From Deltaproteobacteria bacterium (GTDB lineage: Bacteria > Desulfobacterota > Syntrophorhabdia > Syntrophorhabdales > JANXAF01), in the NCBI GenBank assembly GCA_026417175.1, contig JAOADT010000004.1, positions 29,519-93,518 of the forward strand: a stretch of DNA of 64,000 nucleotides, written 5' to 3'. The first letter of the stretch is position 1, and every line of letters begins with the position of its first letter. The notes below the pieces were generated by a model that ran no database searches, was not told the DNA's origin, and saw only the letters and a list, made by a program, of their open reading frames with translations. This document shows positions 31,736 through 62,068 of the stretch, piece by piece. The position numbers and the translations under genes were made by a program.

Positions 31736-32182
31736 TTACTCGATTATAAAATCCCATGCGCTATCTTCTATCCAAAGACTAAAATATCCTCTGCCCAGGA
31801 CCTCTTTTGACTTGATCATATATGTCTTATCTTTTAGCTTTTTGATCTCTATTGAGATATCCCGTCCAAATATGAATCTGGGCTTTCCCACCAGAGAAGA
31901 GTGAAAAAATTCCATCGGGTTAAAAGTGAGTACTTCTATATTGTAGTCACCGTAAATTATGAAGTATTCAACGTCTTTTAAAAGAAATCTTGGAGGGGAA
32001 AGGCTTTCTATGTAGTATATACCCTCCTCTATGAAAACGATGTTGGGCATAAGTCTTATGAGACCTTTGGGAGTTTTAACATAGACCCCGTATTCTTTCG
32101 GTAACTGAAGTTTGTCAGCGGAGTAAGAGGAGCTGAGAATTAGAGCAAAGAGTACAATCAGAAAAATTAAAATGTTTCTCAT
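31736..32182 (-). CDS. Hypothetical secreted protein
   Basis: 148 aa with a signal-like N-terminus MRNILIFLIVLFALILSSSYSA; overlaps the yjbQ stop by 4 nt. No motif recognised. Confidence 0.6.
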   Translation of the reverse strand: MRNILIFLIVLFALILSSSYSADKLQLPKEYGVYVKTPKGLIRLMPNIVFIEEGIYYIESLSPPRFLLKDVEYFIIYGDYNIEVLTFNPMEFFHSSLVGKPRFIFGRDISIEIKKLKDKTYMIKSKEVLGRGYFSLWIEDSAWDFIIE

Positions 32183-32562: not shown

Positions 32563-32951
32563 CAGTTGTCCCTCTTTTCCTTTTTTTTCTTATAATCTTC
32601 GATTGCAGCTTTTAAGGCATCCTCTGCTAGTACAGAACAGTGCATCTTCTCCGGTGGTAAGCCCCCCAAGGCTTCTGCAACCACCTCATTGGTCAATTTT
32701 AATGCTTCATCCACAGTTTTCCCTTTTATTAATTCTGTAGTCATACTGCTTGACGCTATAGCTGCTCCACACCCAAACGTTTTGAATTTCGCATCTACTA
32801 TTATGTCATTTTCTATCTTTAGATAGAGTTTCATCACATCGCCGCATACGGGACTTCCCACTTCTCCTATCCCGTCTGCATCTTCAATCTCACCCATGTT
32901 TCTAGGGTTCATAAAATGATCCATAACCTTTTCACTGTATGGCCCTGCCAT
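32562..32951 (-). CDS. iscU: Fe-S cluster assembly scaffold IscU/NifU N-terminal type
   Basis: VMDHFMNPRNMG, GSPVCGDVMKLY, FKTFGCGAAIASSS and KMHCSVLAEDA (three conserved Cys). Confidence 0.9.
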   Translation of the reverse strand: MAGPYSEKVMDHFMNPRNMGEIEDADGIGEVGSPVCGDVMKLYLKIENDIIVDAKFKTFGCGAAIASSSMTTELIKGKTVDEALKLTNEVVAEALGGLPPEKMHCSVLAEDALKAAIEDYKKKKEKRDN

Positions 32952-33227
32952 ATACTCCTCCTCTTTTATATTAATTCATTAACTTCTTAACTTTCTATTG
33001 TACCTCTTCGCATACTAAGCTTCATTTTAATCCCATTTTTTCCTCAGAAAAAGCAATTACTCATTACCACATCTAATCAAAAATTCACCTTCCAAAAACT
33101 TAACCAAGGAACTTAAGGCTCCACATTTTGGAATCTTTGTTTAGTATACCACGCAGATTCTGACTTTTCTATGGATAAATCTTCTCTTTGTTAATGCTAG
33201 AGAGTTTTAAGGAATGCGAGTCTTTTT

Positions 33228-33257
33228 TTCGCCACATTTAGCTTCGCCACATTTAGC
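33228..33257. repeat. Perfect 15-bp tandem direct repeat (TTCGCCACATTTAGC x2) upstream of the XDH-family operon
   Basis: Read directly at 33228..33242 and 33243..33257. Related CCACATTT / CCACAT cores also occur at 33121 and about 33066. The repeat lies about 90 bp upstream of ATG 33346. Confidence 0.9.
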
Positions 33258-33345
33258 TGAAGTAGATGCGCGAAGAATCACAATTATCCAACTCTAAGAA
33301 TCTTTACCTTGACTGTGCACTAAAAAAAGTTGTACATCTCGGTAT

Positions 33346-36132
33346 ATGGGGAAGAAACCGAAAGAAATAAATCTTTTCGTGAATGGAAAGCGCTACAGCT
33401 TTTCTGTTGGTGAAAACAAGAACCAAGTTTCTCCGAATCATACCCTGGCCTATACGATTAGGGAAGTTATTGGATTGAAAGGAACAAAAATCTCATGCGA
33501 AAGCGGAGCTTGTGGTGCCTGTACAGTAATCATGGATGGAATCCCGGTCCTTTCTTGTATGCTTCTTACGGTTGAATGTAACGGGAAAAGCATTTTGACT
33601 ATAGAAGGACTAGAAAAAGACGGGAAACTAGATCCTGTTCAAGAGGCATTTATAAAACATTCGGCATTTCAGTGTGGATTTTGCACTCCAGGAATAATAA
33701 TGAGTTCAAAAGCTCTATTAACCCAAAACCCATCACCTTCTGATGAGGATATAAGACAAGCCCTATCCGGCCATTTTTGTAGATGCGTAAGCCACTATCA
33801 GGTCATAGACGCGGTGAAGGAAGCCTCCGGTAAAGCTGTAACAAAAAAAAGACTCCTGAGAGAAAAAACCGATAGCAAACTTAGTATCATAGGAAAAGAA
33901 ACCCACAGGACGGATGCGAAAAAAATAGTTACAGGAAAAGTTGAATATTTAAATGATCTTAGATTTGACAATCTCCTGTTTGGCAAGATTCTTAGAAGTT
34001 CTTATGCTCACGCCCTAATAAAAAAAATAGACGTATCAGAAGTAGAAAAAATGGATGGGGTAAAAGCTATCCTTACATGGGAAAATGTTCCAGATTTAAG
34101 AGGAGGTACTCCCAGATTTAAAAGAGCCCTCGATCAAAAAGTCCGGTTTGTTGGTGACGCGGTCGCTGTTGTAGCTGCAGAGAGTGAGGAACTCGCCGAG
34201 GAGGCTATCAGTAAGATAAGGGTGGATTATGAAGTGATTGATCCTGTTATTAAGCCAGAAAGTGCTTTGAAAAAAGGAGCACCTTCGCTTTATTTGGAGT
34301 TTCCGGAAAATGTGCTTCCCTCACATACCAACTTCTTTGGTCCTAAATCTCTAAAAGAACTAATTTTTGGAGACCCAGAGAAAGGTTTAAACGAGGCTGA
34401 TTGTATAATTGAAGACGAGTTTTCCTATAACGGCATTCCAAATCCCTTACCGGCTGAGTCCCCTGCTGTTATAGCTTTATGGGAAGACCCTAATCGACTC
34501 ACTCTTTGGACTTCAACTCAGGCACCTTATTTTGATAAATTGGTACTTTCTCGTATCTTCGGAAAAGAGATCAACATCCGAGTTATAAGTCCCACCTGTG
34601 GTGGAAGCTTCGGAAGCAAACTCATGTCTTGGCAATTGCAAGTTTTTGCCGCACTTCTAAGTAAGAAAACCGGGCATCCCGTTAAAGTTTCCTTGACAAA
34701 GGACGAACACCTTGCAACATTCACACTGAGGCCAGGTGTAAAGCTAAAAGGTAAAATAGGTATGAAGAAGGATGGAACCGTGACTGCCGTCTCAGGTGAT
34801 CTAATAATAGATACGGGATACTATTCATTTACCACCCAGGCACAGCTAGCTGTTGGGTTAGGGGAAGTTCAGATAATGCTCAGGTGTGAGAATTGGAATT
34901 TACGGCCAAAAATTGTGGTCACAAATAGAAATGCATCAGGAATAGTGAGAGGTTTCGGAGGACAAGAGATAAAGTGTGTTTTAATACCGCTTCTCTGTCG
35001 TGCAATGGAAAGGCTAAATATTGATCCCTTTGAATTCTTCAAAAAAAATTTTGTCAAGCCAGGTGATGGATATTACTGGAGAGATGGAAAATGGTATTCT
35101 TACAGAGGAGTAAATTACTCTAAAGCCATGGAAAAGGGGGCAACCATCTTTGGGTGGAGAAATAAGTGGAAGGGCTGGCTTAAGCCTACAAAAATAAATG
35201 GAAGCAAAAGAAGAGGGGTCGGTGTGGCAGTCCACGGCAATGCGGATGTGGGAGAGGACGTATCAGAAGCTTTTGTTTCATTACATCCAGAAGGGAGAGC
35301 TACAATTTTTTCCTGTATAACAGAACACGGCACAGGTCAGGTGAGTAACATAGTAAAAATGGTTGCCGAGGTTTTGGGCCTCAAAATAGAAGATATCAAT
35401 CTTTCACCTGCGGATTCTCTTGTTACGCCTTTTGAATTTGGTCCCGTGGGGTCAAGAGGTACATACGCCATAGGAAGCGCAACAATAGCTGCAGCTGAGA
35501 ATGCAAAACAAAAGCTTTTGAGGAAAGCTTCAAAGCTCTTTGGTGTTGATCCTGCAAAACTCGATACAAAAGATGGATTCGTTTACATTAAGGCCAATCC
35601 TCTAAAGAAAATACCTTGGCATAAGATAATCGGATGGGAAAAAACCTTATCTGGATACGGAAGATTTGAGGCAGATCATACACTCACTAATTGTATGATG
35701 AGCTTCGTTGAGGTCGAAGTGGACATTGATACGGGCGAGACCCAAATCATCGAGATTGTAAACGCGACTGACGTGGGTATGGTAATAGATCCAATGGGAC
35801 TTGAAGGTCAACTCAATGGCTGCTTGGGGTCTGCAGGAATAGATACGGCTATATTTGAGGAAACCGTGTTAGATAAAGGAACAGGAGTGATTTTGAACCC
35901 AAACATGATAGACTACAAATGGAGAACATTTGCTGAGCTCCCAGAGATAAAACACGTTGTACTTGAGACACCCTTTCCGACTCACAAGTTCCACGCAATA
36001 GGTGTAGGAGAGATTGCTACATCGCCTGGTCCTGCAGCCACATTTATGGCCATATGTAATGCGATAGGTACCTGGTTAAAAGAATATCCAGTTACTCCGG
36101 ACAAGATATTGGAGGCGGTAAAAGAAAAATGA
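33346..36132 (+). CDS. Xanthine dehydrogenase/aldehyde oxidase-family molybdenum hydroxylase, fused [2Fe-2S] + Moco-binding subunit
   Basis: N-terminal CESGACGACTV and QCGFCTPG...CRCVSHYQ (two 2Fe-2S sites), fused to an a/b-hammerhead and large Moco domain (GGSFGSK, GVGEIATSPGP); 928 aa. Confidence 0.88.
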   Translation: MGKKPKEINLFVNGKRYSFSVGENKNQVSPNHTLAYTIREVIGLKGTKISCESGACGACTVIMDGIPVLSCMLLTVECNGKSILTIEGLEKDGKLDPVQEAFIKHSAFQCGFCTPGIIMSSKALLTQNPSPSDEDIRQALSGHFCRCVSHYQVIDAVKEASGKAVTKKRLLREKTDSKLSIIGKETHRTDAKKIVTGKVEYLNDLRFDNLLFGKILRSSYAHALIKKIDVSEVEKMDGVKAILTWENVPDLRGGTPRFKRALDQKVRFVGDAVAVVAAESEELAEEAISKIRVDYEVIDPVIKPESALKKGAPSLYLEFPENVLPSHTNFFGPKSLKELIFGDPEKGLNEADCIIEDEFSYNGIPNPLPAESPAVIALWEDPNRLTLWTSTQAPYFDKLVLSRIFGKEINIRVISPTCGGSFGSKLMSWQLQVFAALLSKKTGHPVKVSLTKDEHLATFTLRPGVKLKGKIGMKKDGTVTAVSGDLIIDTGYYSFTTQAQLAVGLGEVQIMLRCENWNLRPKIVVTNRNASGIVRGFGGQEIKCVLIPLLCRAMERLNIDPFEFFKKNFVKPGDGYYWRDGKWYSYRGVNYSKAMEKGATIFGWRNKWKGWLKPTKINGSKRRGVGVAVHGNADVGEDVSEAFVSLHPEGRATIFSCITEHGTGQVSNIVKMVAEVLGLKIEDINLSPADSLVTPFEFGPVGSRGTYAIGSATIAAAENAKQKLLRKASKLFGVDPAKLDTKDGFVYIKANPLKKIPWHKIIGWEKTLSGYGRFEADHTLTNCMMSFVEVEVDIDTGETQIIEIVNATDVGMVIDPMGLEGQLNGCLGSAGIDTAIFEETVLDKGTGVILNPNMIDYKWRTFAELPEIKHVVLETPFPTHKFHAIGVGEIATSPGPAATFMAICNAIGTWLKEYPVTPDKILEAVKEK

Positions 36133-37100
36133 AAAAGTTCGAATACATTGAGGCTGAAGATCTAGAAGATCTTCTTTCCATATTATGGGATTTCAAAAAC
36201 GAAGCCAGGGTAATTGCCGGAGGGACTGACCTTTTATCCATTTTTAAGGACCAATACCTGTTATCGTATCCAAAACTGGTGGTAAACGCCAAACCTGTAA
36301 AAGAACTGGATTATGTCTACATTGAGGGCGGTATATTAAAAATTGGAGCCCTCACGAGACTATCAACACTTTTATCACACCCATTGGTCATTGAAAAATT
36401 TCCAATTATCAAAGAAGCAATAATGACTATAGCAACTCCGCAAATAAGGAACGTTGGAACTGTAGGTGGTAATCTTTGCCAGGATATAAGATGTTGGTAT
36501 TATAGATATCCTGCCAGACTTGGAGGCCCACTGATATGTTTAAGAAAGGGTGGAAAAACCTGTTTGGCCATAAGGGGTGACAATCGATACCACGCTTTGA
36601 TAGGAAAAAGGTGCTATGCCGTATGTCCTTCCGACTTGGCCATCGTACTTTGTTGTCTGAACGCAGAGATAATTGTGGTAAAAAAGAAAAATCAGAGAAA
36701 ACTTGATGTTCAGTCGCTTTATACGCCTTTAGGTCTGTCGCTTCAACCTGATGAAATTGTAAAGGAAATACAAGTGCCCTGTAACTACGGTTTTCGCCAG
36801 AGATTCATAAAATTCACAATTAGGAGACCTATAGATTTTGCAGTTCTCAGTTTAGCAGGCCAATTGAAATTTGAAAAAAAAGACTTAAGCAAGTGGATAA
36901 TAACCTTTGGGGGTATATCTTACCGACCTGAAGTAGTTGTTGTAACAAAATATTTTCAGAAAAATGAGAAAACAGTGGAAAAACTATTAGAGGAGATAGT
37001 AAGATCTGTGCTAGTTAAAGCGAAGCCACTCACGAAAAATGCTTACAAAATACCGTTACTAAAAGGTCTTTCAAGAAAACTGATTCACTCTCTTATGTAA
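36129..37100 (+). CDS. FAD-binding subunit of XDH-family enzyme with HcrB-like Cys-rich ([4Fe-4S]-type) insertion
   Basis: AGGTDLL FAD motif. GGNLCQDIRCWYYRYPARLGGPLICLRKGGKTCLAIRGDNRYHALIGKRCYAVCPSD (residues about 113-168). 323 aa, which is longer than the CoxM-type FAD-binding subunits as I recall them. ATGA-coupled to the large subunit. Confidence 0.8.
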   Translation: MKKFEYIEAEDLEDLLSILWDFKNEARVIAGGTDLLSIFKDQYLLSYPKLVVNAKPVKELDYVYIEGGILKIGALTRLSTLLSHPLVIEKFPIIKEAIMTIATPQIRNVGTVGGNLCQDIRCWYYRYPARLGGPLICLRKGGKTCLAIRGDNRYHALIGKRCYAVCPSDLAIVLCCLNAEIIVVKKKNQRKLDVQSLYTPLGLSLQPDEIVKEIQVPCNYGFRQRFIKFTIRRPIDFAVLSLAGQLKFEKKDLSKWIITFGGISYRPEVVVVTKYFQKNEKTVEKLLEEIVRSVLVKAKPLTKNAYKIPLLKGLSRKLIHSLM

Positions 37101-53998: not shown

Positions 53999-54820
53999 AT
54001 GAATAGAAGAAAAACTTCTTCAAATTACACAAAAACAGTGCCAGCTGTTGATCAAGCATTGAAGATCCTTTTCTTTATGGCAAAAGATAAACACCCGAAG
54101 CTTTCACTTACGGAGATATGTAAAGGGGTAGGGATTCATAAGAGCAAGGGCTTCTCCATACTTAATACGCTTGCGAAATATGGACTGGTACAAAAAGATT
54201 CCGAGGACAAACAGTACGCGTTGGGATTAGGAATTCTTTCTCTGTCGAGGAAGGTTCTTGAGAATTTAGATTATAGAAGAATCGCCATGCCATATCTTGA
54301 GAAAATATCTAATTTGACAAAGGCAACTGCAATTTTTGGTGTCATTCTTGGAGAAGATTTATTCGTGGTGGCAAAAAAAGAACCGAAGAGCTCTGTACAC
54401 ATCACTATCCGCCTCGGCTACCGGTTTCACATAACTCATGGCGCCCATGGAAAAGCTATAGCTGCCTTTCTTGAAGAAAAAGAACTTTTATCTTTGATAA
54501 AAAAAAGAAAAACATATTTTTTTGGCAACCAGACAGTGCTAGATAAGGATAGGCTTATGTCAGAAATAAGAGAATGCCGAAAAAAGGGTTTCGCTTACGA
54601 CATAGGCGAACTTCATCCGGGTATCTCTGCTATTTCATCTCCTGTTTTCGACTCGAAAAACACTCCTATAGGTGTGCTGATAATACTCGGTACCTTAGAA
54701 AAAGAAAAGATGGAAGATTTCGGAAGGATAGTCCACGAGGCCGCACGGGATTTTTCCTTGGAGCTCGGTGCGGACTTAAAAAAGACTTACGAAAAATATG
54801 CAAATTTAGCAAGGGAGTGA
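53999..54820 (+). CDS. IclR-family transcriptional regulator
   Basis: N-terminal wHTH VPAVDQALKILFFMAKDKHPKLSLTEICKGVGIHKSKGFSILNTL and a C-terminal IclR effector domain (ISAISSPVF); 273 aa. Confidence 0.88.
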   Translation: MNRRKTSSNYTKTVPAVDQALKILFFMAKDKHPKLSLTEICKGVGIHKSKGFSILNTLAKYGLVQKDSEDKQYALGLGILSLSRKVLENLDYRRIAMPYLEKISNLTKATAIFGVILGEDLFVVAKKEPKSSVHITIRLGYRFHITHGAHGKAIAAFLEEKELLSLIKKRKTYFFGNQTVLDKDRLMSEIRECRKKGFAYDIGELHPGISAISSPVFDSKNTPIGVLIILGTLEKEKMEDFGRIVHEAARDFSLELGADLKKTYEKYANLARE

Positions 54821-54824
54821 AACA

Positions 54825-57251
54825 ATGAATCAGGAAGGGTTCCATATTATAAGAACAACTACCTGGTCCGCAGGACCGGGTTGCCACGGTGGATGTGGCG
54901 TTATTGCGTATGTAAAGGATGGAAAGTTGATTAAAGTAGAGGGAGATCCAGACCATCCGTGGAACCAGGGAAGGCTTTGTGCAAGGGCTTTAGCAATGAA
55001 ACAGTATGTTTATCATCCAAAAAGATTGAAAAAGCCTTTAGTAAGAAAAGGGCAGAGAGGAGAAGGAAAATGGGAGGAAGTTTCATGGGATTTCGCTTAT
55101 GACCTAATTGAAAAAAGGATGAAAAAGATCAGAGACGAGTTTGGTCCAGAAAGTTTTATCTTTGCGATGGGCACAGGTCGGGACATAGGCCCATGGATAT
55201 GTATGTTAGCTTATGCATACGGAAGTCCAAACGTCATGTTTGCCTTGAGTGGAAACGCTTGTTACAGTCCGCGCATAGCTGCACTAGATACGTTCCAAGG
55301 AGACTACTGTGTTTTCGATGCTGGTCAGTGGTTTGAGAAAAGATACGATGATCCAAGATTTGTTCGTCCAGAGTGTATGATTATATGGGGCTATAACATA
55401 CATTCTACCTGTCCGGATAACCTTTTTGGCCACTGGATCGTGGACTTGATGAAAAAGGGAACGAAAATAATTGTAGTTGATCCAAGACTAACATGGTTTT
55501 CTTCAAGGGCTGAAATTTGGCTCAGAGTTAGACCCGGTACTGATTCTGCGCTTGCCCTTGGTTTATTACATGTAATAGTAAAGGAGGAACTCTTCGATCG
55601 TACGTTTTTGGAAAGATGGACCAATGCCTTTTTACTTCTTCGAACTGACAAAAACGTGCTTTTACGCGAAAGTGATCTTATCCCGAACGGGAAACGTGAG
55701 AACTTTGTCGTATGGGATAAGAATTCTGAAAGAGTTGCTTTCTGGGATACAGAAAAACTTGAATTTAGGCCGGCTTCTACTACCCCCTCCTTTTCGTGCG
55801 AGATTGATCTCGCATGTGTAGACGGAAATACAGTTCGATGCCACACGGTATGGGATGCATTCAGAAAAAGAGTAATGGAATATGATCCTTCCACTGTTGA
55901 GAAGATAACAGGTGTTCCCAAAGAAGATGTAATCAGAGCCGCAAGAATGTATGCAAAAAGTAAACCTGCCTCCATTCATTGGGGAGTGCCAATAGATATG
56001 ACACCTAATGTTACACCTCTTTGTCACGCAATTGCTTGTCTTTGGGCTCTCACTGGGAATTTGGATGTGCCGGGCGGAAATGTTGTGGCCCGTTTTGCTT
56101 TTGACGCTGTGGCATATGCCCTCCCAGGGGCTGAAGGTATAATACGCCTCAAATCGAAAGAGCAGGATATACCTAGAATCGGAAGGGAAAAATACGGACC
56201 TTTCCAAAAATTTATCTGGAGATGTCAGACTGATACCGCCTTTGAGCAGATATTTTCCGAAAAACCTTATCCAATTAAGGGAATGTGGATACAGACGTTA
56301 AATCCCTTGGCCGGCATAGGCATGGATCCAAAAAGGTGGAGAGAGGCTCTTCTCAAAATGGATTTCGTAGTGGGTGTTGATCTTTTCATGACTCCGACGC
56401 TTATGTACGCAGACGTAATTTTGCCGGCAGCGACCTTCCTTGAAAAGGAAGGGATAAGATCCTGGTGGGTTCCACTACAGAGCATAAACAAAGCCTTAAC
56501 AGTAGACGAATGTAAATCCGATGCTGAGATAAACTTTGAGCTAGCTAAGAGATTTGATCCTGAATTCAGATGGAAATCTTTGGAGGAACTATTTGATGAA
56601 ATCATAAAACCCTCAGGCCTAACTTACAAGGAATTAAAAGAAAGAGTGTGGGTTTTACCGACTGAGGGACACCCAAGTCATCCGTACTTGCGTCACGAAA
56701 AAGGTCTTTTAAGAAAAGATAGAAAGCCTGGTTTCCAAACACCAACGGGAAGATTTGAACTCTATTCAGTCTTGAGAGAGGAATGGGGTTACGAACCGCT
56801 TCCCATTCATGAAGAGCCACCTTTCACGCCTGTTTCTAGGCCAGACCTTACAAAGGATTATCCGTTGATACTCTCAACGGGAAGAAGGTCTCCGGCTTAT
56901 TTCCATTCGGAACATAGGATGATACCGTGGCTGAGAAGTATAGACCCAGATCCGGTCGTAGAAGTACATCCCAATACCGCAAAAAAATACGGGATTGCCG
57001 ATGGAGAATGGGTATACGTAGAAAACTGGATGGGGAAGGCAAAATTTAGGGCAAAAGTAACACCCATTGTACCCGAATGGATGGTCATGGCAACCCATGG
57101 TTGGTGGTTTCCTGAGAAAAATCCAGAGGAACCCGAACTTTTCGGAGTTTGGGAGTCTAATATTAATCTTCTAATCCCCATGGGTCAACACGGAAAAGAT
57201 GGACTCGGTGCACCCATAAAACATTTGCTGTGCAAAATTTATAGAGCTTAG
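54825..57251 (+). CDS. Cytoplasmic molybdopterin/tungstopterin (bis-PGD) oxidoreductase, catalytic subunit, acetylene-hydratase-like clade, substrate unknown
   Basis: 808 aa with no twin-arginine signal. N-terminal FeS region WSAGPGCHGGCGVIAYVKDGKLIKVEGDPDHPWNQGRLCAR. Putative metal-ligand region SGNACYSPR. The C-terminal third (DYPLILSTGRR...DPDPVVEVHPNTAKKYGIADGEWVYVEN...GAPIKHLLCKIYRA) aligns by eye with the acetylene hydratase C-terminus. Confidence 0.85.
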   Translation: MNQEGFHIIRTTTWSAGPGCHGGCGVIAYVKDGKLIKVEGDPDHPWNQGRLCARALAMKQYVYHPKRLKKPLVRKGQRGEGKWEEVSWDFAYDLIEKRMKKIRDEFGPESFIFAMGTGRDIGPWICMLAYAYGSPNVMFALSGNACYSPRIAALDTFQGDYCVFDAGQWFEKRYDDPRFVRPECMIIWGYNIHSTCPDNLFGHWIVDLMKKGTKIIVVDPRLTWFSSRAEIWLRVRPGTDSALALGLLHVIVKEELFDRTFLERWTNAFLLLRTDKNVLLRESDLIPNGKRENFVVWDKNSERVAFWDTEKLEFRPASTTPSFSCEIDLACVDGNTVRCHTVWDAFRKRVMEYDPSTVEKITGVPKEDVIRAARMYAKSKPASIHWGVPIDMTPNVTPLCHAIACLWALTGNLDVPGGNVVARFAFDAVAYALPGAEGIIRLKSKEQDIPRIGREKYGPFQKFIWRCQTDTAFEQIFSEKPYPIKGMWIQTLNPLAGIGMDPKRWREALLKMDFVVGVDLFMTPTLMYADVILPAATFLEKEGIRSWWVPLQSINKALTVDECKSDAEINFELAKRFDPEFRWKSLEELFDEIIKPSGLTYKELKERVWVLPTEGHPSHPYLRHEKGLLRKDRKPGFQTPTGRFELYSVLREEWGYEPLPIHEEPPFTPVSRPDLTKDYPLILSTGRRSPAYFHSEHRMIPWLRSIDPDPVVEVHPNTAKKYGIADGEWVYVENWMGKAKFRAKVTPIVPEWMVMATHGWWFPEKNPEEPELFGVWESNINLLIPMGQHGKDGLGAPIKHLLCKIYRA

Positions 57252-57265
57252 GAAAGGAGAATAAG

Positions 57266-57607
57266 ATGAACGAGAAAGAAGTTCATGGGATGTTGATAGA
57301 CTATGAATATTGCACAGGATGTCATACTTGCGAAGTAGCATGTGCTCAGGAATACAACTGGGAAGAGGGAGTTTCGGGGATGAAAGTTATAGAAATCGTA
57401 GAGAAACTTCCAAATGATAGATATTATCTCGTGTACCTCCCATTTCCAACGGAAGCATGTTCCCTATGCATAGGGAGAGTGAAGAAAGGCATGGAACCAC
57501 AATGTGTAAAGCACTGTATGGCTAAATGTTTAGAATTCGGGCCAGTAGAGAATCTCCTAGAAAAAATGAAAGGAAAAAAGAGGACTGTTCTTTTTAGGCC
57601 TAGATAA
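57266..57607 (+). CDS. Small 4Fe-4S ferredoxin-type subunit (half-size DmsB/PsrB-like beta subunit)
   Basis: 113 aa with CTGCHTCEVAC (CxxCxxCxxxC) and CSLC-x11-CVKHC. Starts 14 nt after the catalytic subunit. Confidence 0.8.
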   Translation: MNEKEVHGMLIDYEYCTGCHTCEVACAQEYNWEEGVSGMKVIEIVEKLPNDRYYLVYLPFPTEACSLCIGRVKKGMEPQCVKHCMAKCLEFGPVENLLEKMKGKKRTVLFRPR

Positions 57608-57620
57608 GAGCATAGAGGTT

Positions 57621-59177
57621 TTAATTTCTTAATCTATACCGAATAAGCTTGCCTGTTGTAGTCCTTGGAAGGTCACTTACAAAAGACACCCACTTAGGTG
57701 TTTTAAAATGAGCTGTCCTATTCTTTACGTGTTCGATGATTTCTTTTTCTAATTTTTCATCTGGCGTATATCCTTCATTTAGAACTACAAATGCCTTTAT
57801 CCTTAAGAGTCCTTCCTCCGAAGGAACTCCGACTACCCCACATTCCCTAACCGCGGGATGTCCCATTATTATGTTTTCTATCTCAATTGGCGAAACCCAC
57901 TGTCCGCTAACCTTTAGCATGTCGTCAGCTCGACCCTGATAATAAAAATATCCATCTTCGTCCATTAAGAATAGATCACCTGTATTAAACCATTCACCTT
58001 TTATTACCTCCTTATTTTTATCGTGTCTTCTCCAATAACCGGGGGTAACACCGTCGTTTTTAATCCATAATGTACCCACGCTTCCTTTGGGTACAGGTTT
58101 GAAATTTTCGTCTCTTAATTCTGCTTCAAATCCCGGGATGATTTTTCCGCTTGCTCCAGGCTTTTTCCGACCTTCTACATTAGCCATATAAATACCGCCT
58201 ACGTCCGTACTCCCCACCCCATCTATTATTTCGATTCCAAAAATCTTCTCCCACCTTTCGAAAACCTCCTTAGGAAGAGGTTCACCTGCAGAAATACATG
58301 TTCTAAGTGACGAAAAATCACACTTTTCTCTTTTTTCTATTTCTTTTAACAACGATATATAAAAAGTAGGAACACTGAATAGAACCGTTGGTTTTTTGGT
58401 TTCGATTATCTCTATGATCTCCTGAGGTTTCGGCCATTTTGGCCAAAGTATCACTGAGGCTCCATAAAGAAGAGGTATTTCAAGTGATGCATTTCTTCCA
58501 TATGAGAAAAACATTTTGGATGTTGCAAATATGAGATCTTTTTCTCTTATTCCAAGAATGTACTCGGAAAAAGGTGGTATGTAGTAAATAATATCGTGAT
58601 GGAGGTGAACTACGGCCTTTGGAAGCCCTGTTGTACCTGAAGTATACATCCAGAATGCCATATCATCCTTTGATGTGGGTTCTGTCTCAAGAATTGAAGA
58701 AGAGGCGTGTAAAAGCTCCGAATAACTCAGAGTTTCTTTCTTAGGTTCTCCTACAACTACCACGTGTTTCAGAAAAGGAACTTCATTCCTTAAGTCTTTT
58801 AACTTTTCGTAAAGTTCTGACTCTATAAATAGGACCTTTGCCCTTGAATCTTTAAGAAAAAAAAGATAATCCTTGGGAGAGGCCAACGTATTTACAGGGA
58901 TAGGTATTGCTCCGATCTTCATTGTCCCGAGGTAGGTAGCCACGAATTCTGGCGAATCGTTAAGAACGATAAGAACCCGGTTTTCTGGTTCTATACCGAT
59001 GTTCTTCAAGGCATTTCCCAGTTTATTTGCCATCATGTGCAAATTCTCGTAGGTTATAATATCATTCCCATAGACAATTGCCTGATTTTTCCCTCTTTTT
59101 TCCTTGATGTGTCTTTCGAGAAGAACTTCTACCTGGTTAAAAATCTCTGGTACTTCGAAACCTATAAGTGAGATCAC
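57621..59177 (-). CDS. Aryl-CoA ligase of the benzoate / 4-hydroxybenzoate-CoA ligase family (AMP-forming)
   Basis: P-loop YTSGTTGLPKAVVHLHHD. The N-terminal pattern NQVEVLLERH...GKNQAIVYGNDIITYENLHMMANKLGNALKNIGIEPENRV...DSPEF...GTMKIGAIPIPVNT is typical of the benzoate-CoA ligase family. C-terminal PRTTTGKL. Confidence 0.8.
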   Translation of the reverse strand: MISLIGFEVPEIFNQVEVLLERHIKEKRGKNQAIVYGNDIITYENLHMMANKLGNALKNIGIEPENRVLIVLNDSPEFVATYLGTMKIGAIPIPVNTLASPKDYLFFLKDSRAKVLFIESELYEKLKDLRNEVPFLKHVVVVGEPKKETLSYSELLHASSSILETEPTSKDDMAFWMYTSGTTGLPKAVVHLHHDIIYYIPPFSEYILGIREKDLIFATSKMFFSYGRNASLEIPLLYGASVILWPKWPKPQEIIEIIETKKPTVLFSVPTFYISLLKEIEKREKCDFSSLRTCISAGEPLPKEVFERWEKIFGIEIIDGVGSTDVGGIYMANVEGRKKPGASGKIIPGFEAELRDENFKPVPKGSVGTLWIKNDGVTPGYWRRHDKNKEVIKGEWFNTGDLFLMDEDGYFYYQGRADDMLKVSGQWVSPIEIENIIMGHPAVRECGVVGVPSEEGLLRIKAFVVLNEGYTPDEKLEKEIIEHVKNRTAHFKTPKWVSFVSDLPRTTTGKLIRYRLRN

Positions 59178-59186
59178 CTTGACTCC

Positions 59187-60488
59187 TTACTTCACAAAAG
59201 ATGGGAGAAATGTAGCAATTGGCGGATAAAATAGAATTATGATTGAGGCAACTATCATAGCAACCAGAAATGGAAAAATACCTTTAAAAATCTGTTCGAG
59301 AGGAACCTCTTTCGCTATCCCTTTAATTACGTAAACGTTCACTCCAACAGGAGGTGTAATAACCCCCATACAGGTAACAAGCACGATAATAACACCAAAC
59401 CATATGGGATCGTAGCCTAGATGCAACACTATCGGAAAAAGTATGGGAATGGTAAGTATGATAAGGGGTATAGCATCTATGAAACAACCGCCGATTAAGT
59501 AAATGAAAATAATAATCAACATGATCAAATATGGTGGAACCTGTAAAGAAGACACCCAACTTGAAATCATGACAGGAATTTTAGAAACGGTTATAAAACG
59601 TCCAAAAACAGTTGCGCAAGCAATGATTGTCAAGATCATACAAGAAGTTCTTAGCGCTTCCCGAGTATTCTGTACAAAAGAATCCCATGTAATCTCTCTT
59701 CTTATGAGGCCAAGGATAAGTGCGCCGGCCGCACCTATACCTCCTGCTTGCGTAGGCGTAAAAAAGCCAAATAAAAGCCCTCCTACAACCAGCACAAAAA
59801 GTCCAACAGCATCGAGAATTTTAAGACAAGCGACAACCTTTTCTTTGAAAGTCGATTTTTCTCCTTCTGGGCCGTAGGACGGATTTCGATAGCATATAAT
59901 TAAGACTGCTACACTCATGAGGGTGGCAAGAAGAATACCTGGAAGAATACCAGATATGAAAAGCTTTCCTATGGATTGTTCGGTCATGAAACCATAAATG
60001 AGAAATATAACACTAGGAGGTATAAGTATCCCTAAGCTTCCAGCCGAAGCAATACATCCGGTAGCTAAGGTATCATCATATCCGTATTTCTTCATGGCTG
60101 GTAGGGCAAGCTTGCCCATCGTGGCAGCCGTTGCAGTTGAAGAACCACATATAGCACCAAAAGCAGCGCAGGCAAATATAGAAGCTATCGCTAGACCACC
60201 TTTTATATGTCCGAACACTTTATAAGCTGCATCGTAAAGTCTCGAGCCGAGACCTGCCGAGAAAGCGTAATATCCCATGAGAATAAACATGGGGATTGCG
60301 CTTATGGAATACGACGTAAGTTGTTCGAATATGTTCCTTGGAAGAACTGCTAATCCTGTTTTTAACGAAGTCACATAAGAAAATCCCACAAACCCAACAA
60401 ATGCCATAGAAAAAGCAATCGGCATCCTTATTACAAAAAATGCGACAAGAATTACAATTCCCAAAATTCCTGCCATTTCAGGACTCAT
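59187..60488 (-). CDS. TRAP transporter large permease (DctM)
   Basis: 433-aa polytopic membrane protein, immediately downstream of the small permease with a 4-nt overlap. Confidence 0.88.
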   Translation of the reverse strand: MSPEMAGILGIVILVAFFVIRMPIAFSMAFVGFVGFSYVTSLKTGLAVLPRNIFEQLTSYSISAIPMFILMGYYAFSAGLGSRLYDAAYKVFGHIKGGLAIASIFACAAFGAICGSSTATAATMGKLALPAMKKYGYDDTLATGCIASAGSLGILIPPSVIFLIYGFMTEQSIGKLFISGILPGILLATLMSVAVLIICYRNPSYGPEGEKSTFKEKVVACLKILDAVGLFVLVVGGLLFGFFTPTQAGGIGAAGALILGLIRREITWDSFVQNTREALRTSCMILTIIACATVFGRFITVSKIPVMISSWVSSLQVPPYLIMLIIIFIYLIGGCFIDAIPLIILTIPILFPIVLHLGYDPIWFGVIIVLVTCMGVITPPVGVNVYVIKGIAKEVPLEQIFKGIFPFLVAMIVASIIILFYPPIATFLPSFVK

Positions 60489-60967
60489 CTTTTCATCCTC
60501 ACGTTTTTTACTAATTCAATAATGTAATACAGAATTACAGGAACCAAGCTTATGGCGAACGCATACGCTAAGGGATAAAGCGGTAATTTTAAGACAGAAC
60601 CCATTTCGCCTGATATCTGCAAAGATTTAGCATACTTTAGTCCGTAAATGAATAAAATAAAGAATAACGTGAGACAACAGAGAGATACAAAAGTGTCCAG
60701 AATTTTTTTGATCGAAAAAGGTAATTTATCCGCAATAAACTCAATTTTAAGATGAGTTCCAAGGTAAAGACCGAAAGCAATTGCGAAAGATATGGCTACA
60801 ACCTGAGCAAAACTTATTATTTCTAAAGCCCCGGGCAGGGGCCATCCAAAAAATTTTGCACCTACAACATCAACAAGGTTAGCAAAAAACATTACCAGGA
60901 AAAAAATGGCCCCTATCCCTTCTAGATATCTACTTATATTTCGCGTGAGTTTATCGAGCCCTTCCAT
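60485..60967 (-). CDS. TRAP transporter small permease (DctQ)
   Basis: 160 aa with four hydrophobic helices, lying between the DctP and DctM genes. Confidence 0.85.
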   Translation of the reverse strand: MEGLDKLTRNISRYLEGIGAIFFLVMFFANLVDVVGAKFFGWPLPGALEIISFAQVVAISFAIAFGLYLGTHLKIEFIADKLPFSIKKILDTFVSLCCLTLFFILFIYGLKYAKSLQISGEMGSVLKLPLYPLAYAFAISLVPVILYYIIELVKNVRMKR

Positions 60968-60994
60968 CGGAAATTCCTTATCTTATTGATCTCT

Positions 60995-62068
60995 TTATTT
61001 GATCCTTACCTCGTCAGGACCCGTTGTCGATTTTATTTTTAGCTCCTTCTGTCGTTTGGTCCAATAGTCTATCCTTTCTTTTACAAACGAGATCCAACCT
61101 CTCACTTCCTTTTCCGGATACCCTGCAGAAACCATCGATTTTACGTACTTTTCGATAACTGTCTCTGCCGCCTTGATCCATCTCTTTTCTTCTTCAGGGG
61201 ACAACGTAATGAACTGAATCCCTTTCTCCTTCCCTAACTGTTTTCCATCTATATCAATTTCGTTCCACATTGTGGCTAGCTTTTCCTCAAAGGGATACTC
61301 ATTGAAGACTTTCTTCACATCGTCAGGAAGCTTCTTCCAAGTCTCTTTATTCATAACAATGTAAAAGTTATACTGTTGTCCTATACCCCAACACTCGGTT
61401 GTGTATTTTATGACTTCAGCAAACCTAAATGCTCTATACGTCTCCATTGGGATGTAGACACCGTCAACCACTTTTTTGAGAATCGCATCATAAGTTTCAG
61501 GTGTCGCTAGTCCCCTAGGGGTTGCTCCGAGTGCAGCAACAGTGTCCGCAATGTACCCAACAGCTCTAATATTTAGACCTTTTAAATCCTCAAGTTTATA
61601 AACCGGCTTTGTTGCGGTCATCATCACGTTTATTGGAGAGCTATGTAAGGTGATCACTTGCACATCATCCCATTCCTTCGGCTTAAACTTCCTATAAAAG
61701 TCATTAACTACGCGGTTTGATACCCATGCATTCGGAAAACCCAAAGGCATGTCCAAAACTTCTGTCACTTTGAATCTACCTGGCGTATAAGCTATGTGGG
61801 AAAACCCTATGTCCGCAATACCTTCAACAACACCATCGTACATTTTAGCCGGACTCAGAAGGGTTCCTGCAGCAAAGTAACTGAATTTTACTTTGCCACC
61901 AGTTCTTGCTTCAAGATCTTTTATGAACTCCTCACATATTTTCGATTGTCTAGCAACTACGGGAAAGTAATTGGCCCATTTGAGTTCGATAGCCGGGGCT
62001 GAAAGGACGGTTTTAGAAAAAAGCAAAAGTGAAGTGATCATAAATAGCAACATACCCAATTTTTTCAT
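60995..62068 (-). CDS. TRAP transporter periplasmic solute-binding protein (DctP family)
   Basis: Signal peptide MKKLGMLLFMITSLLLFSKTVLSA; ELKWANYFP...GGKVKFSYFAAGTLL is typical of DctP-type SBPs. Confidence 0.85.
   Translation of the reverse strand: MKKLGMLLFMITSLLLFSKTVLSAPAIELKWANYFPVVARQSKICEEFIKDLEARTGGKVKFSYFAAGTLLSPAKMYDGVVEGIADIGFSHIAYTPGRFKVTEVLDMPLGFPNAWVSNRVVNDFYRKFKPKEWDDVQVITLHSSPINVMMTATKPVYKLEDLKGLNIRAVGYIADTVAALGATPRGLATPETYDAILKKVVDGVYIPMETYRAFRFAEVIKYTTECWGIGQQYNFYIVMNKETWKKLPDDVKKVFNEYPFEEKLATMWNEIDIDGKQLGKEKGIQFITLSPEEEKRWIKAAETVIEKYVKSMVSAGYPEKEVRGWISFVKERIDYWTKRQKELKIKSTTGPDEVRIK

What the first reader, a model, noticed from the sequence alone, without database searches (positions are those of the whole stretch)
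33346..37100. XDH-family enzyme with fused 2Fe-2S/Moco subunit and a 4-hydroxybenzoyl-CoA-reductase (HcrB)-type Cys-rich insertion in the FAD subunit
Seen in sequence:
- The FAD subunit (323 aa) carries about 45 extra residues between GGNLCQ and CPSDLA: CQDIRCWYYRYPARLGGPLICLRKGGKTCLAIRGDNRYHALIGKRCYAVC. The Cys residues are at 117, 122, 137, 145, 162 and 166.
- The small 2Fe-2S subunit is fused to the N-terminus of the Moco subunit (928 aa).

Established knowledge, recalled from memory and to be verified: among molybdenum hydroxylases, the beta subunit of Thauera 4-hydroxybenzoyl-CoA reductase is distinguished by a loop insertion binding a [4Fe-4S] cluster. As I recall it, the pattern is GGNLCQDTRC...C...C...RCYA, which closely resembles the one here. 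That cluster lets the enzyme run in the reductive, ferredoxin-driven direction.

Inference: this is probably a low-potential reductive dehydroxylase-type enzyme rather than a purine or aldehyde hydroxylase. Together with the aryl-CoA ligase 20 kb away, it hints at hydroxy-aromatic-CoA metabolism, which I would not have assumed for an organism of this type and which I have not checked.
Basis: partly seen in the sequence, partly recalled or inferred. Interest (0 to 1): 0.6.

Follow-up and report, generated by a model that had tools for sequence, protein, structure and literature searches.

The report
HCR-like molybdenum enzyme, unknown substrate

Summary
ORF 33346-36132 fuses two [2Fe-2S] domains to a Moco domain. 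ORF 36129-37100 is an FAD subunit with a ~45-residue Cys-rich loop. C122, C137, C145 and C162 are invariant in 120/120 homologues.

- The loop is not HCR-specific. E. coli PaoB and the Methylobacillus aldehyde oxidase, both oxidative enzymes, have it too. The window's four Cys align column for column with theirs.
- Bona fide HcrB shares only three of those columns.
- The urolithin dehydroxylase UcdCFO is reductive and lacks the loop. The loop therefore does not predict direction.
- Neither subunit reaches the NCBIfam HCR cutoffs (370 vs 994; 153 vs 404).
- The Moco domain is 25-29 % identical to HcrA, XdhA, CoxL and PaoC. It sits in its own clade (100 % bootstrap) with thousands of relatives in anaerobes.

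Relatives often lie next to aryl/acyl-CoA ligases, IclR regulators, TRAP transporters and CoA-ester enzymes. The window's IclR and DctP, 17-25 kb away, are orthologous to such neighbours. The window's ligase is a benzoate-CoA-ligase family member.

Best guess (~0.4): a ferredoxin-coupled enzyme acting on an aromatic acyl-CoA, possibly by reductive dehydroxylation. Aldehyde or heterocycle oxidation remains possible.

The parts
33346..36132 (+). Gene for the fused small/large subunit (928 aa): N-terminal 2x[2Fe-2S] module (aa 1-~165), linker (~160-180) and the Moco-binding catalytic domain (aa ~180-928).
   Evidence: ORF. Pfam Fer2_2, Ald_Xan_dh_C, MoCoBD_1 and MoCoBD_2. 100 % identical to NCBI MAG protein P0121.
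33496..33786 (+). Codons for the eight [2Fe-2S] ligand Cys: C51, C56, C59, C71 (plant-type motif) and C110, C113, C145, C147.
   Evidence: Motif positions. Fer2/Fer2_2 hits.
33883..36129 (+). Moco domain with a hydroxylase-type active site: Gln392, Arg535 (VRGFGGQE) and catalytic Glu889 (GVGEIA). It has no CODH 'AYRCSFR' loop. It carries a family-specific invariant Cys418.
   Evidence: These residues are invariant in 120/120 family members.
36129..37100 (+). Gene for the FAD subunit (323 aa), translationally coupled to the upstream gene by an ATGA overlap.
   Evidence: FAD motifs AGGTDL (aa 30) and TVGGN (aa 111). AF2 model has pLDDT 82 and pTM 0.85.
36477..36626 (+). Cys-rich insertion (aa 117-166), the predicted [4Fe-4S] binding loop. 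The predicted ligands are C122, C137, C145 and C162.
   Evidence: The four Cys are invariant in 120/120. They align column for column with PaoB C119/C129/C138/C157 and 5y6q_B C118/C130/C139/C158.
32952..33345 (.). Upstream intergenic region, the presumed promoter/operator. It contains a perfect 15-bp tandem direct repeat at 33228-33257.
   Evidence: No function tested.
53999..54820 (+). IclR-family regulator, a possible distant partner (inferred).
   Evidence: 42-46 % identical to the IclR genes lying directly upstream of the homologous operon in L003, L016, L017, L020 and L023.
57621..59177 (-). Benzoate-CoA ligase family protein, a possible supplier of an aryl-CoA substrate (inferred).
   Evidence: TIGR02262 505.9 bits vs cutoff 375.25. 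Second best is the 3-hydroxybenzoate-CoA ligase HbdA model, 439 vs 1000.
59187..62068 (-). TRAP transporter DctM-DctQ-DctP, possibly for uptake of the acid substrate (inferred).
   Evidence: Pfam hits. The DctP is 46 % identical to the DctP that follows the operon and ligase in the Syntrophorhabdus locus L003.

Best explanation
The two genes encode a cytoplasmic molybdenum enzyme of the xanthine-oxidase/CODH family with five redox centres. The large subunit carries Mo-pyranopterin and two [2Fe-2S] clusters. The medium subunit carries FAD and a peripheral [4Fe-4S] cluster held by C122, C137, C145 and C162.

Electrons are expected to pass along Mo <-> [2Fe-2S] <-> [2Fe-2S] <-> FAD <-> [4Fe-4S] <-> a ferredoxin-type partner. 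This path is inferred by homology to HCR and PaoABC.

The enzyme belongs to a large, uncharacterised clade of anaerobe enzymes. That clade is a paralogue of 4-hydroxybenzoyl-CoA reductase, not its orthologue.

The most likely role is action on an aromatic or related carboxylic acid after CoA activation. HCR-type reductive removal of a ring substituent (OH or NH2), driven by reduced ferredoxin, is the leading candidate.

- **Shown:** domain and cofactor make-up, conservation of the ligands, clade membership and gene neighbourhoods.
- **Inferred:** the electron path, the CoA-ester substrate and the reductive direction.
For: **Cofactor modules**
- Domains and motifs.
- The four Cys are invariant in 120/120 homologues.
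- The active-site residues Gln392, Arg535 and Glu889 are invariant in 120/120.
- The fold matches loop-bearing FAD subunits best.

**Location and gene order**
- The protein has no Tat signal, unlike PaoA.
- The gene order is FeS-Moco-FAD, as in hcrCAB.

**Links to CoA-ester metabolism in relatives**
- An AMP-ligase cluster occurs in 9 of the 28 closest loci. In L003 and L022 it overlaps the end of the FAD gene.
- An IclR gene lies directly upstream in 6 of the 28.
- In L083/L084 the order is corrinoid protein, two MtaA-type methyltransferases, acyl-CoA ligase, acyl-CoA dehydrogenase, then the fused operon.
- In L085 the fused operon overlaps a 2-hydroxyacyl-CoA-dehydratase/BCR-type pair and is followed by a PaaI-like thioesterase.
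- In L018 and L027 it lies next to an HCR-like operon.

**Links within the window**
- The IclR and DctP are orthologous (42-46 % identity) to neighbours of the operon elsewhere. The ligase belongs to the benzoate-CoA ligase family.

**Literature precedent**
- D. anilini has several differentially induced HCR-like gene sets for phenol and for aniline/4-aminobenzoate (PMC6114531, PMC7500099).
Against: - The Cys topology matches the oxidative aldehyde enzymes PaoB and 5y6q_B, not HcrB.
- The best sequence match for the FAD subunit in the PDB is an aldehyde oxidase.
- Having the loop does not imply reduction.
- In the window's own lineage (window, L001, L086) the operon sits between IscU/YjbQ and TsaB/RseP/Dxr, with no pathway genes adjacent.
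- The ligase is about 20 kb away. It is only 24-28 % identical to the ligases that flank the operon elsewhere.
- Only about a third of related loci show CoA-type neighbours. The neighbourhoods are heterogeneous: 152 Pfam families among 110 neighbours.
- Two loci instead have adenine-deaminase-like and XdhA-type neighbours.
- No Bcr/Bam or dearomatisation gene lies in the 64-kb window.
Confidence: 0.4

Rival explanations
1. It is a cytoplasmic molybdenum aldehyde oxidoreductase, a PaoABC/Methylobacillus-AO/D. gigas MOP-like function. It would oxidise (aromatic) aldehydes to acids and pass the low-potential electrons through FAD and the [4Fe-4S] cluster to ferredoxin. The neighbouring ligases would then activate the acid product.
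For: - All four Cys columns match PaoB and 5y6q_B.
- The best PDB sequence hit for the FAD subunit is the aldehyde oxidase 5y6q_B (8.6e-30).
- The FeS-Moco fusion mirrors D. gigas MOP, which aligns over residues 32-926.
- The NF045668 aldehyde oxidoreductase model scores 388 bits, close to the top.
- A stand-alone operon in housekeeping surroundings suits a detoxifying role.
- Ligase, transporter and O-demethylase-like neighbours also fit an aldehyde -> acid -> CoA route.
Against: - The Moco domain is only 25.5 % identical to PaoC. It is separated from PaoC with 100 % bootstrap.
- All aldehyde-enzyme models score far below cutoff: 388 vs 1100 and 246 vs 1180.
- There is no Tat signal, the gene order differs from paoABC, and no PaoD/XdhC chaperone was seen in the window.
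- Unlike MOP it has an FAD subunit.
- An operon-internal 2-hydroxyacyl-CoA-dehydratase-type pair (L085) and an acyl-CoA dehydrogenase (L083) point to CoA esters rather than free aldehydes.
Confidence: 0.25
2. It is an oxidative hydroxylase of an N-heterocycle or a heteroaryl compound or its CoA ester, in the manner of nicotinate, purine or furoyl-CoA dehydrogenases. Ferredoxin would be the electron acceptor in anaerobes.
For: - The hydroxylase-type active site (Gln392, Arg535, Glu889) is fully conserved.
- The XdhA models are nominally the best NCBIfam hits (404 bits).
- In L028 and L030 the operon lies beside an adenine-deaminase-like amidohydrolase. In L030 it also lies beside a bona fide XdhA-type subunit (1102 vs 780 bits).
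- The ligase + enoyl-CoA hydratase + acyl-CoA dehydrogenase neighbours resemble the furoyl-CoA dehydrogenase cluster logic. That comparison is recalled from memory and was not tested.
Against: - The residue equivalent to the purine-binding Glu802 of bovine XDH is Leu/Phe (position 426). This equivalence was read from motif alignment and is recalled knowledge.
- The Moco domain does not group with XdhA.
- The scores are less than half of the equivalog cutoffs.
- Purine-type neighbours occur in only 2 of 28 loci.
Confidence: 0.2
3. It is a true orthologue of 4-hydroxybenzoyl-CoA reductase (HcrCAB/HbaBCD) with fused gamma and alpha subunits. This is the strictest form of the first reader's reading.
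For: - HcrA is the top PDB hit for the Moco domain (3e-73).
- The HcrB model is the top NCBIfam hit for the FAD subunit.
- The gene order is the same.
Against: - Scores are 370 vs cutoff 994.55 and 152.8 vs 404.55. Thauera HcrA and HcrB score 1387 and 558.
- Identity to HcrA is 29 %.
- Both trees exclude it from the HCR clade.
- The HcrB-clade Cys spacing 15-7-8, found in 115/120 sequences, is not shared. One ligand column differs.
- In L018 and L027 an HCR-like operon coexists with this clade.
- Geobacter has a separate, true hcr operon (PMC1924859).
Confidence: 0.05

Closest known systems
4-hydroxybenzoyl-CoA reductase HcrCAB of Thauera aromatica (PDB 1rm6)
   Same: - It has the same set of modules: 2x[2Fe-2S], Moco, and FAD with an inserted Cys loop.
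- The gene order is the same: FeS-Moco-FAD.
- It is cytoplasmic.
- It is the top structural and sequence match, tied with others, for both subunits.
   Different: - Identity is 29 % (Moco) and ~23 % (FAD).
- The window proteins fail the curated HCR models.
- They form separate clades in both trees.
- The FeS and Moco subunits are fused here.
- One of the four cluster-ligand positions differs: HcrB C146 aligns with window R153, and window C137 aligns with a deletion/Trp in HcrB.
E. coli periplasmic aldehyde oxidoreductase PaoABC (PDB 5g5g) and Methylobacillus aldehyde oxidase (PDB 5y6q)
   Same: - The FAD subunit has a four-Cys [4Fe-4S] loop.
- All four Cys columns coincide with those of the window protein.
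- The 'G.N..HA..G' stretch between the third and fourth Cys is similar (PMC13404670).
   Different: - PaoA has a Tat signal and PaoABC is periplasmic.
- The gene order is FeS-FAD-Moco, with a PaoD chaperone gene alongside.
- PaoC is only 25.5 % identical and lies in another clade.
- The subunits are not fused.
- PaoB lacks the RCWYYRYP signature, C117 and C166.
Desulfovibrio gigas aldehyde oxidoreductase MOP (PDB 1sij/1vlb)
   Same: It is a single polypeptide with the N-terminal 2x[2Fe-2S] module fused to the Moco domain. It aligns over residues 32-926.
   Different: - MOP has no FAD subunit or domain and no [4Fe-4S] cluster (PMC10223205).
- The NF045668 model scores 388 bits against a cutoff of 1100.
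Urolithin C dehydroxylase UcdCFO/Ucdh of Enterocloster bolteae
   Same: It is an XO-family heterotrimer from a strict anaerobe. It performs reductive dehydroxylation, so reductive chemistry in this family is wider than HCR (PMC11760930; bioRxiv 10.1101/2025.01.17.632430).
   Different: It lacks the [4Fe-4S] loop and uses NADH. Its substrate is not a CoA ester. No sequence comparison was made here.

Membership tests
4-hydroxybenzoyl-CoA reductase (HcrCAB/HbaBCD) | Alpha subunit reaches the curated equivalog model TIGR03194 (cutoff 994.55 bits) | tested here: not met
   The window scores 370.4 bits. The Thauera HcrA control scores 1387.
4-hydroxybenzoyl-CoA reductase (HcrCAB/HbaBCD) | Beta subunit reaches TIGR03195 (cutoff 404.55 bits) | tested here: not met
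   The window scores 152.8 bits. The Thauera HcrB control scores 558.2.
4-hydroxybenzoyl-CoA reductase (HcrCAB/HbaBCD) | The four [4Fe-4S] ligand Cys of HcrB (C122, C138, C146, C155; ligand identity recalled from Unciuleac et al. 2004) are conserved in the same columns | tested here: not met
   Three of four columns are conserved. HcrB C146 aligns with window R153. Window C137 has no HcrB counterpart. The result is the same in phmmer and two L-INS-i alignments. The HcrB-clade spacing is 15-7-8 in 115/120 sequences, against 14-7-16 here.
4-hydroxybenzoyl-CoA reductase (HcrCAB/HbaBCD) | Groups phylogenetically with HcrA/HcrB | tested here: not met
   In the Moco tree the window family is split from HcrA and all other references at 100 % bootstrap. 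In the FAD tree the HcrB clade (100 %) excludes the window clade (99.5 %). These are NJ trees only.
4-hydroxybenzoyl-CoA reductase (HcrCAB/HbaBCD) | Operon order gamma(FeS)-alpha(Moco)-beta(FAD) | tested here: met
   The order is the same in the window (with a fusion) and in 21 of 28 related loci. The Thauera locus L087 is shown.
4-hydroxybenzoyl-CoA reductase (HcrCAB/HbaBCD) | [quoted passage not shown] | not testable with these tools
   This requires an enzyme assay.
4-hydroxybenzoyl-CoA reductase (HcrCAB/HbaBCD) | Genome encodes a benzoyl-CoA reductase and the downstream pathway | tested here: inconclusive
   None was found in the 64-kb window. The rest of the 107-kb contig and the MAG could not be reached.
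PaoABC-type periplasmic aldehyde oxidoreductase | Four-Cys [4Fe-4S] motif in the FAD subunit, in the same columns | tested here: met
   Window C122/C137/C145/C162 align with PaoB C119/C129/C138/C157, which are the only four Cys in PaoB.
PaoABC-type periplasmic aldehyde oxidoreductase | Tat signal on the FeS subunit (periplasmic location) | tested here: not met
   PaoA has ...LTRRDLIK.... The window N-terminus MGKKPKEINLFVNGK has no twin-arginine motif.
PaoABC-type periplasmic aldehyde oxidoreductase | PaoC equivalog model NF041671 (cutoff 1180) and grouping with PaoC | tested here: not met
   The score is 245.8 bits. Identity is 25.5 % and the clades are separate.
PaoABC-type periplasmic aldehyde oxidoreductase | Gene order paoA(FeS)-paoB(FAD)-paoC(Moco) with a paoD chaperone | tested here: not met
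   The E. coli locus is shown. The window order is FeS/Moco-FAD, and no XdhC/PaoD-like gene was found among the annotated window ORFs.
D. gigas MOP-type aldehyde oxidoreductase | Single chain 2x[2Fe-2S]+Moco with no flavin component; model NF045668 (cutoff 1100) | tested here: not met
   The fusion is present, but so is a coupled FAD subunit gene. The score is 388.1 bits.
Aerobic Mo-Cu CO dehydrogenase (CoxSML) | Active-site loop VAYRCSFR with the Cu-binding Cys | tested here: not met
   The window has IVRGFGGQE at that position. The CoxL models score 227-259 bits against cutoffs of 950-991.
Xanthine-oxidase family molybdenum hydroxylases (general) | Moco-binding domains plus the conserved Gln, Arg (RGFG) and catalytic Glu, two [2Fe-2S] motifs, and an FAD_binding_5 subunit | tested here: met
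   Gln392, Arg535 and Glu889 are invariant in 120/120.

The most novel reading that the evidence does not exclude
This clade (Moco >=50 % identical across Thermodesulfobacteriota, Bacillota, Dehalococcoidia, Actinomycetota and Bathyarchaeia) may be a second, widespread family of ferredoxin-driven reductive aryl-CoA 'de-functionalising' enzymes, distinct from HCR. Members could remove substituents for which activities are known but genes are not. [quoted passage not shown] If so, it would be a major gateway from lignin-derived and xenobiotic aromatics into the benzoyl-CoA pathway in strict anaerobes.
Probability: 0.25. Interest if true: 0.65.

Novelty: new member of a known kind. Interest (0 to 1): 0.4.

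Why it matters
Only a few XO-family enzymes are known to carry a [4Fe-4S] cluster on the flavin subunit: HCR, PaoABC and the Methylobacillus aldehyde oxidase. Very few XO-family enzymes are known to run reductively.

This work shows that the loop-bearing FAD subunit is very common.
- More than 6,800 90 %-identity clusters match at E<=1e-10.
- At least 600 reference species match a search pattern derived from the loop region.
- One well-conserved Moco clade that uses this subunit has no characterised member.

The result also corrects a tempting shortcut, 'extra Cys loop = HCR = reductive'. Annotation pipelines and readers could otherwise propagate it.

If the clade acts on aryl-CoA esters, it would be a good target for finding missing enzymes of anaerobic aromatic degradation. 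The specific instance in this window is, however, one ordinary member of that clade.

Tried and rejected
- **CO dehydrogenase.** Rejected. The window has no AYRCSFR loop and scores low on the CoxL models.
- **Purine XDH orthology.** Rejected. XdhA scores 404 vs 780/916, identity is 28.7 %, and the clades are separate.
- **Fusion as an assembly or frameshift artefact.** Rejected. 27 independent fused homologues exist, and the fusion is polyphyletic within the clade.
- **Using the AF2 model to test cluster geometry.** Not possible. Coordinates are not exposed, and the loop has low confidence (pLDDT 53-60) without the cluster. Foldseek could not separate HcrB from PaoB or 5y6q_B.
- **Reaching the rest of the source contig** to look for Bam/Bcr. 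Three exact-sequence look-ups failed.
- **Reading the HCR structure paper.** It is not held, so the HcrB ligand identities rest on recall plus conservation.
- **Linking the clade to the phenol- or aniline-induced HCR-like genes of Desulfatiglans anilini** (PMC6114531, PMC7500099). Suggestive, because that cluster has a 'DHB-AMP ligase' neighbour as in L003, L011 and L022. The sequences could not be obtained, so the link is unverified.
- **Pfam census of neighbours.** It gave no Bcr/Bam or pps/ppc enrichment.
- **First Biopython bootstrap run.** It timed out and was replaced by a numpy NJ implementation.

Full report
**1. Checking the observation**

They overlap by ATGA, which suggests translational coupling.

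Pfam finds four domains in the large protein: Fer2/Fer2_2, the a/b-hammerhead, MoCoBD_1 and MoCoBD_2. In the small protein it finds FAD_binding_5 and a weak CO_deh_flav_C hit.

Both [2Fe-2S] motifs are intact: C51/56/59/71 and C110/113/145/147. The FAD-subunit Cys are at 117, 122, 137, 145, 162 and 166, as stated. Against loop-less FAD subunits the segment is a ~45-48-residue insertion.

The proteins are 100 % identical to entries from an NCBI MAG labelled 'Deltaproteobacteria bacterium', on a 107-kb contig.

The insertion is not a chance feature.
- In the 120 best homologues C122, C137, C145 and C162 are invariant.
- The loop has a strong signature, RCWYYRYP..GG...C.RKG..C.A..GDNRYHA.

The fusion is not an artefact. 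27 of the 120 best Moco homologues, from independent assemblies, are fused.

**2. Is the loop 'HcrB-type'?**

A PDB sequence search with the FAD subunit returns three proteins that align through the loop:
- the Methylobacillus aldehyde oxidase medium subunit 5y6q_B (8.6e-30);
- Thauera HcrB 1rm6_B (2.3e-23);
- E. coli PaoB 5g5g_B (7.4e-23).

CoxM, NdhF, QorM and the other hits align only up to residue ~117.

An AlphaFold2 model (pLDDT 82) gives the same three as the top Foldseek matches. They are essentially tied at TM 0.81-0.84. Loop-less subunits score 0.71-0.76.

So the loop is homologous to HcrB's, but it is not unique to HCR.
- RefSeq annotates PaoB as the 'FAD-binding Fe-S subunit'.
- A recent preprint describes the four-Cys [4Fe-4S] motif as characteristic of PaoABC (PMC13404670).

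The alignment detail is consistent across the phmmer pairwise alignment and two L-INS-i alignments of 14 and 41 sequences.
- Window C122/C137/C145/C162 fall in the same columns as PaoB C119/C129/C138/C157. These are the only four Cys in PaoB.
- They also fall in the same columns as 5y6q_B C118/C130/C139/C158.
- Bona fide HcrB has Cys at 117, 122, 138, 146 and 155, with spacing 15-7-8 in 115 of 120 HcrB-clade sequences.
- HcrB shares only three columns: C122 = C122, C138 = window C145, and C155 = window C162.
- HcrB has a deletion/Trp where the window has C137. Its own C146 ('GDKC') aligns with window R153.

The topology is PaoB-type. The identity of the HcrB ligands (C122, C138, C146, C155) is recalled from Unciuleac et al. 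2004, which I could not open.

**3. Is it an HCR?**

No curated equivalog model is reached.

| Model | Window score (bits) | Cutoff (bits) |
|---|---|---|
| HcrA | 370 | 994.55 |
| HcrB | 152.8 | 404.55 |
| XdhA | 404 | 780 / 916 |
| Aldehyde oxidoreductase NF045668 | 388 | 1100 |
| PaoC | 246 | 1180 |

As controls, Thauera HcrA scores 1387 and HcrB 558. A typical unfused relative (L003) scores like the window: 377 and 164.

The Moco domain is 29.0 % identical to HcrA, 28.7 % to E. coli XdhA, 27.6 % to CoxL, 25.8 % to QorL and 25.5 % to PaoC. It is 52-77 % identical to its own family.

In a bootstrapped NJ tree the family (window, fused and unfused relatives) is separated from all references by a 100 % split. 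In the FAD-subunit tree:
- the window's fused clade has 99.5 % support;
- HcrB forms its own clade at 100 %;
- the RCWYYRYP super-group is split from HcrB, PaoB and the loop-less subunits at 69 %.

Two further points argue for paralogy.
- In two Desulfobacterales loci (L018, L027) an operon of this family lies next to a second, more HCR-like operon. That one scores 660 bits on the HcrA model.
- Geobacter metallireducens is reported to have a separate, truly hcr-like operon (PMC1924859).

The family is thus a paralogue of HCR, not its orthologue. It does not group with purine or nicotinate hydroxylases, nor with CODH. It lacks the AYRCSFR loop.

The hydroxylase-type active-site residues Gln392, Arg535 and Glu889 are invariant in 120/120 members.

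**4. Does the loop imply reductive catalysis?**

It does not. PaoABC carries the loop and oxidises aldehydes. The Enterocloster urolithin C dehydroxylase is an XO-family reductive dehydroxylase without the loop, and it is driven by NADH (PMC11760930; bioRxiv 10.1101/2025.01.17.632430).

What the loop most plausibly provides is a surface port for a ferredoxin-type partner, usable in either direction. This is an inference.

**5. Size and distribution of the family**

- The FAD-subunit search returned 6,892 clusters at E<=1e-10 among the 8,000 candidates scored. Many carry the JGI label 'YagS'.
- The scan used two peptide patterns from the loop region, RCWYYRYP and [AG]T[ILV]GGNLCQ. Among the closest 28 loci kept, 26 carry CWYYRYP exactly.
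- Taxa include Syntrophorhabdus, Syntrophobacteraceae, Desulfobacterales, Geobacter, Smithella, Desulfosporosinus nitroreducens, Peptococcaceae, Dehalococcoidia, Actinomycetota, Bathyarchaeia, Acidobacteriota and Poribacteria.
- Unfused Moco subunits 62-65 % identical to the window's occur in several of these lineages.
- The FeS-Moco fusion appears more than once within the clade.

**6. Gene context**

In the window the operon is flanked by housekeeping genes. Upstream are HycI, a 148-aa ORF, YjbQ and IscU. Downstream are TsaB, RseP, Dxr, CdsA and UppS. This synteny is kept in two relatives with 74-75 % Moco identity (L001, L086).

Context elsewhere is more informative but heterogeneous.

- Among the 28 closest reference loci, one AMP-ligase cluster occurs in 9.
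  - In L003 and L022 the ligase overlaps the end of the FAD gene.
  - Its best model is the 2,3-dihydroxybenzoate-AMP ligase, below threshold.
- An IclR regulator lies directly upstream in 6 of the 28.
- TRAP or ABC transporters, acyl-CoA dehydrogenases and enoyl-CoA hydratases recur.
- In fused relatives L083/L084 the order is: corrinoid protein, two MtaA-type methyltransferases, acyl-CoA ligase, acyl-CoA dehydrogenase, then the operon.
- In fused relative L085 the order is: the operon, a 2-hydroxyacyl-CoA-dehydratase/benzoyl-CoA-reductase-B/C-type pair with overlapping genes, thioredoxin, then a PaaI-like thioesterase.

Against this, 110 immediate neighbours span 152 Pfam families. Two loci carry adenine-deaminase-like genes, and one of these (L030) also has a bona fide XdhA-type subunit.

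In the window itself, the region 17-25 kb downstream holds several candidate partners.
- An IclR regulator 42-46 % identical to the operon-adjacent IclRs of five genomes.
- A TRAP DctP 46 % identical to the one following the operon and ligase in Syntrophorhabdus L003.
- A ligase that passes the benzoate-CoA ligase family cutoff (505.9 vs 375.25). It is only 24-28 % identical to the operon-adjacent ligases.

No Bcr/Bam or ring-cleavage gene is in the window. The rest of the contig could not be reached.

**7. Most likely mechanism**

- **Shown:** the enzyme is a cytoplasmic heterodimer-type unit. It has no Tat signal, unlike PaoA. It carries Moco, two [2Fe-2S] clusters, FAD and a four-Cys loop.
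- **Inferred from homologues:** the loop binds a [4Fe-4S] cluster that connects FAD to a ferredoxin-like partner.
- **Inferred from context:** the substrate is probably an aromatic or related carboxylic acid activated as a CoA thioester. Reductive removal of a ring substituent, as in HCR, is the leading candidate (~0.4).

There is precedent in Desulfatiglans anilini. It expresses different HCR-like gene sets on phenol and on aniline/4-aminobenzoate. One phenol-induced cluster contains a 'DHB-AMP ligase' of unknown role (PMC6114531, PMC7500099). I could not verify that those genes belong to this clade.

The rivals are:
- an aldehyde:ferredoxin-type Mo oxidoreductase (~0.25). It is favoured by the PaoB-type Cys topology, the MOP-like fusion and the housekeeping setting;
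- an oxidative heterocycle or heteroaryl-CoA hydroxylase (~0.2);
- strict HCR orthology (~0.05), which is largely refuted.

**8. Verdict**

Its premise, that the loop marks HCR and implies reduction, is wrong, and orthology to HCR is rejected.

The object is a new member of a known kind. It is an uncharacterised, very widespread clade of [4Fe-4S]-bearing XO-family enzymes in anaerobes. Interest is moderate. The clade is a worthwhile biochemical target, but this window's copy is a typical member.

Noticed in passing
L041, L042, L048-L053, L058, L060, L061, L065, L067, L069, L072, L076, L078, L080, L081 (FAD-subunit genes at ~10001-11000): A distant subgroup of loop-bearing FAD subunits in Poribacteria and Pyrinomonadaceae/Acidobacteriota lacks the fourth Cys. 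The window-C162 column is Val or Ser ('GGGPVYIVHPSD'), leaving a three-Cys loop. This could mean a [3Fe-4S] cluster or a non-Cys ligand.
   Followed up: partly
window 34597-34599 (Cys418 of the 928-aa protein): An invariant Cys (120/120) sits directly before the GGSFGSK motif near the Mo site. HcrA, CoxL and QorL have Leu or Ile there in the alignments, and bovine XDH has Met (recalled). It is a family-specific residue of unknown role.
   Followed up: no
window 53999-62068: A small island holds an IclR regulator, a DMSO-reductase-family molybdoenzyme that reaches no equivalog model (best PhsA, 281 vs 694), a benzoate-CoA ligase family gene and a TRAP transporter. It is possibly an aromatic-acid uptake and activation module. 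The DMSOR-family enzyme is uncharacterised.
   Followed up: partly
window 33228-33257: A perfect 15-bp tandem direct repeat (TTCGCCACATTTAGC x2) lies about 90 bp upstream of the operon start codon. It is a candidate regulator-binding site.
   Followed up: no
window 32951-33346 compared with L001:3901-5133 and L086:8807-9982: The cysteine desulfurase (IscS/Aminotran_5) gene lies between IscU and the operon in two close relatives. It is absent at that position in the window, where only a 395-bp intergenic region remains.
   Followed up: no
window 31736-32182 (-): A 148-aa ORF has no Pfam hit but is conserved in the same position next to YjbQ in L001 and L086.
   Followed up: no
L018:2051-8528 and L027:204-8368+: In two Desulfobacterales MAGs an operon of the window's clade lies beside a second, more HCR-like XO-family operon, separated by an MFS transporter gene. 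The second operon scores 660 bits on the HcrA model, and its FAD loop reads 'NRCAYYNQSHTF...'. This shows two paralogous loop-bearing enzymes in one locus.
   Followed up: partly
L030:11060-16445 and L028:4825-6630: The clade's operon is flanked by an adenine-deaminase-like amidohydrolase (334.8 bits vs cutoff 472.5). In L030 it is also flanked by a bona fide XdhA-type Moco subunit (1102 bits vs 780). This hints at heterocycle metabolism in some members.
   Followed up: partly
L036:7623-10993, L045:7602-10966: FAD subunits carrying the same RCWYYRYP loop are paired with Moco subunits only ~30 % identical to the window's. The FAD/[4Fe-4S] module therefore serves several different catalytic subunits.
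   Followed up: no
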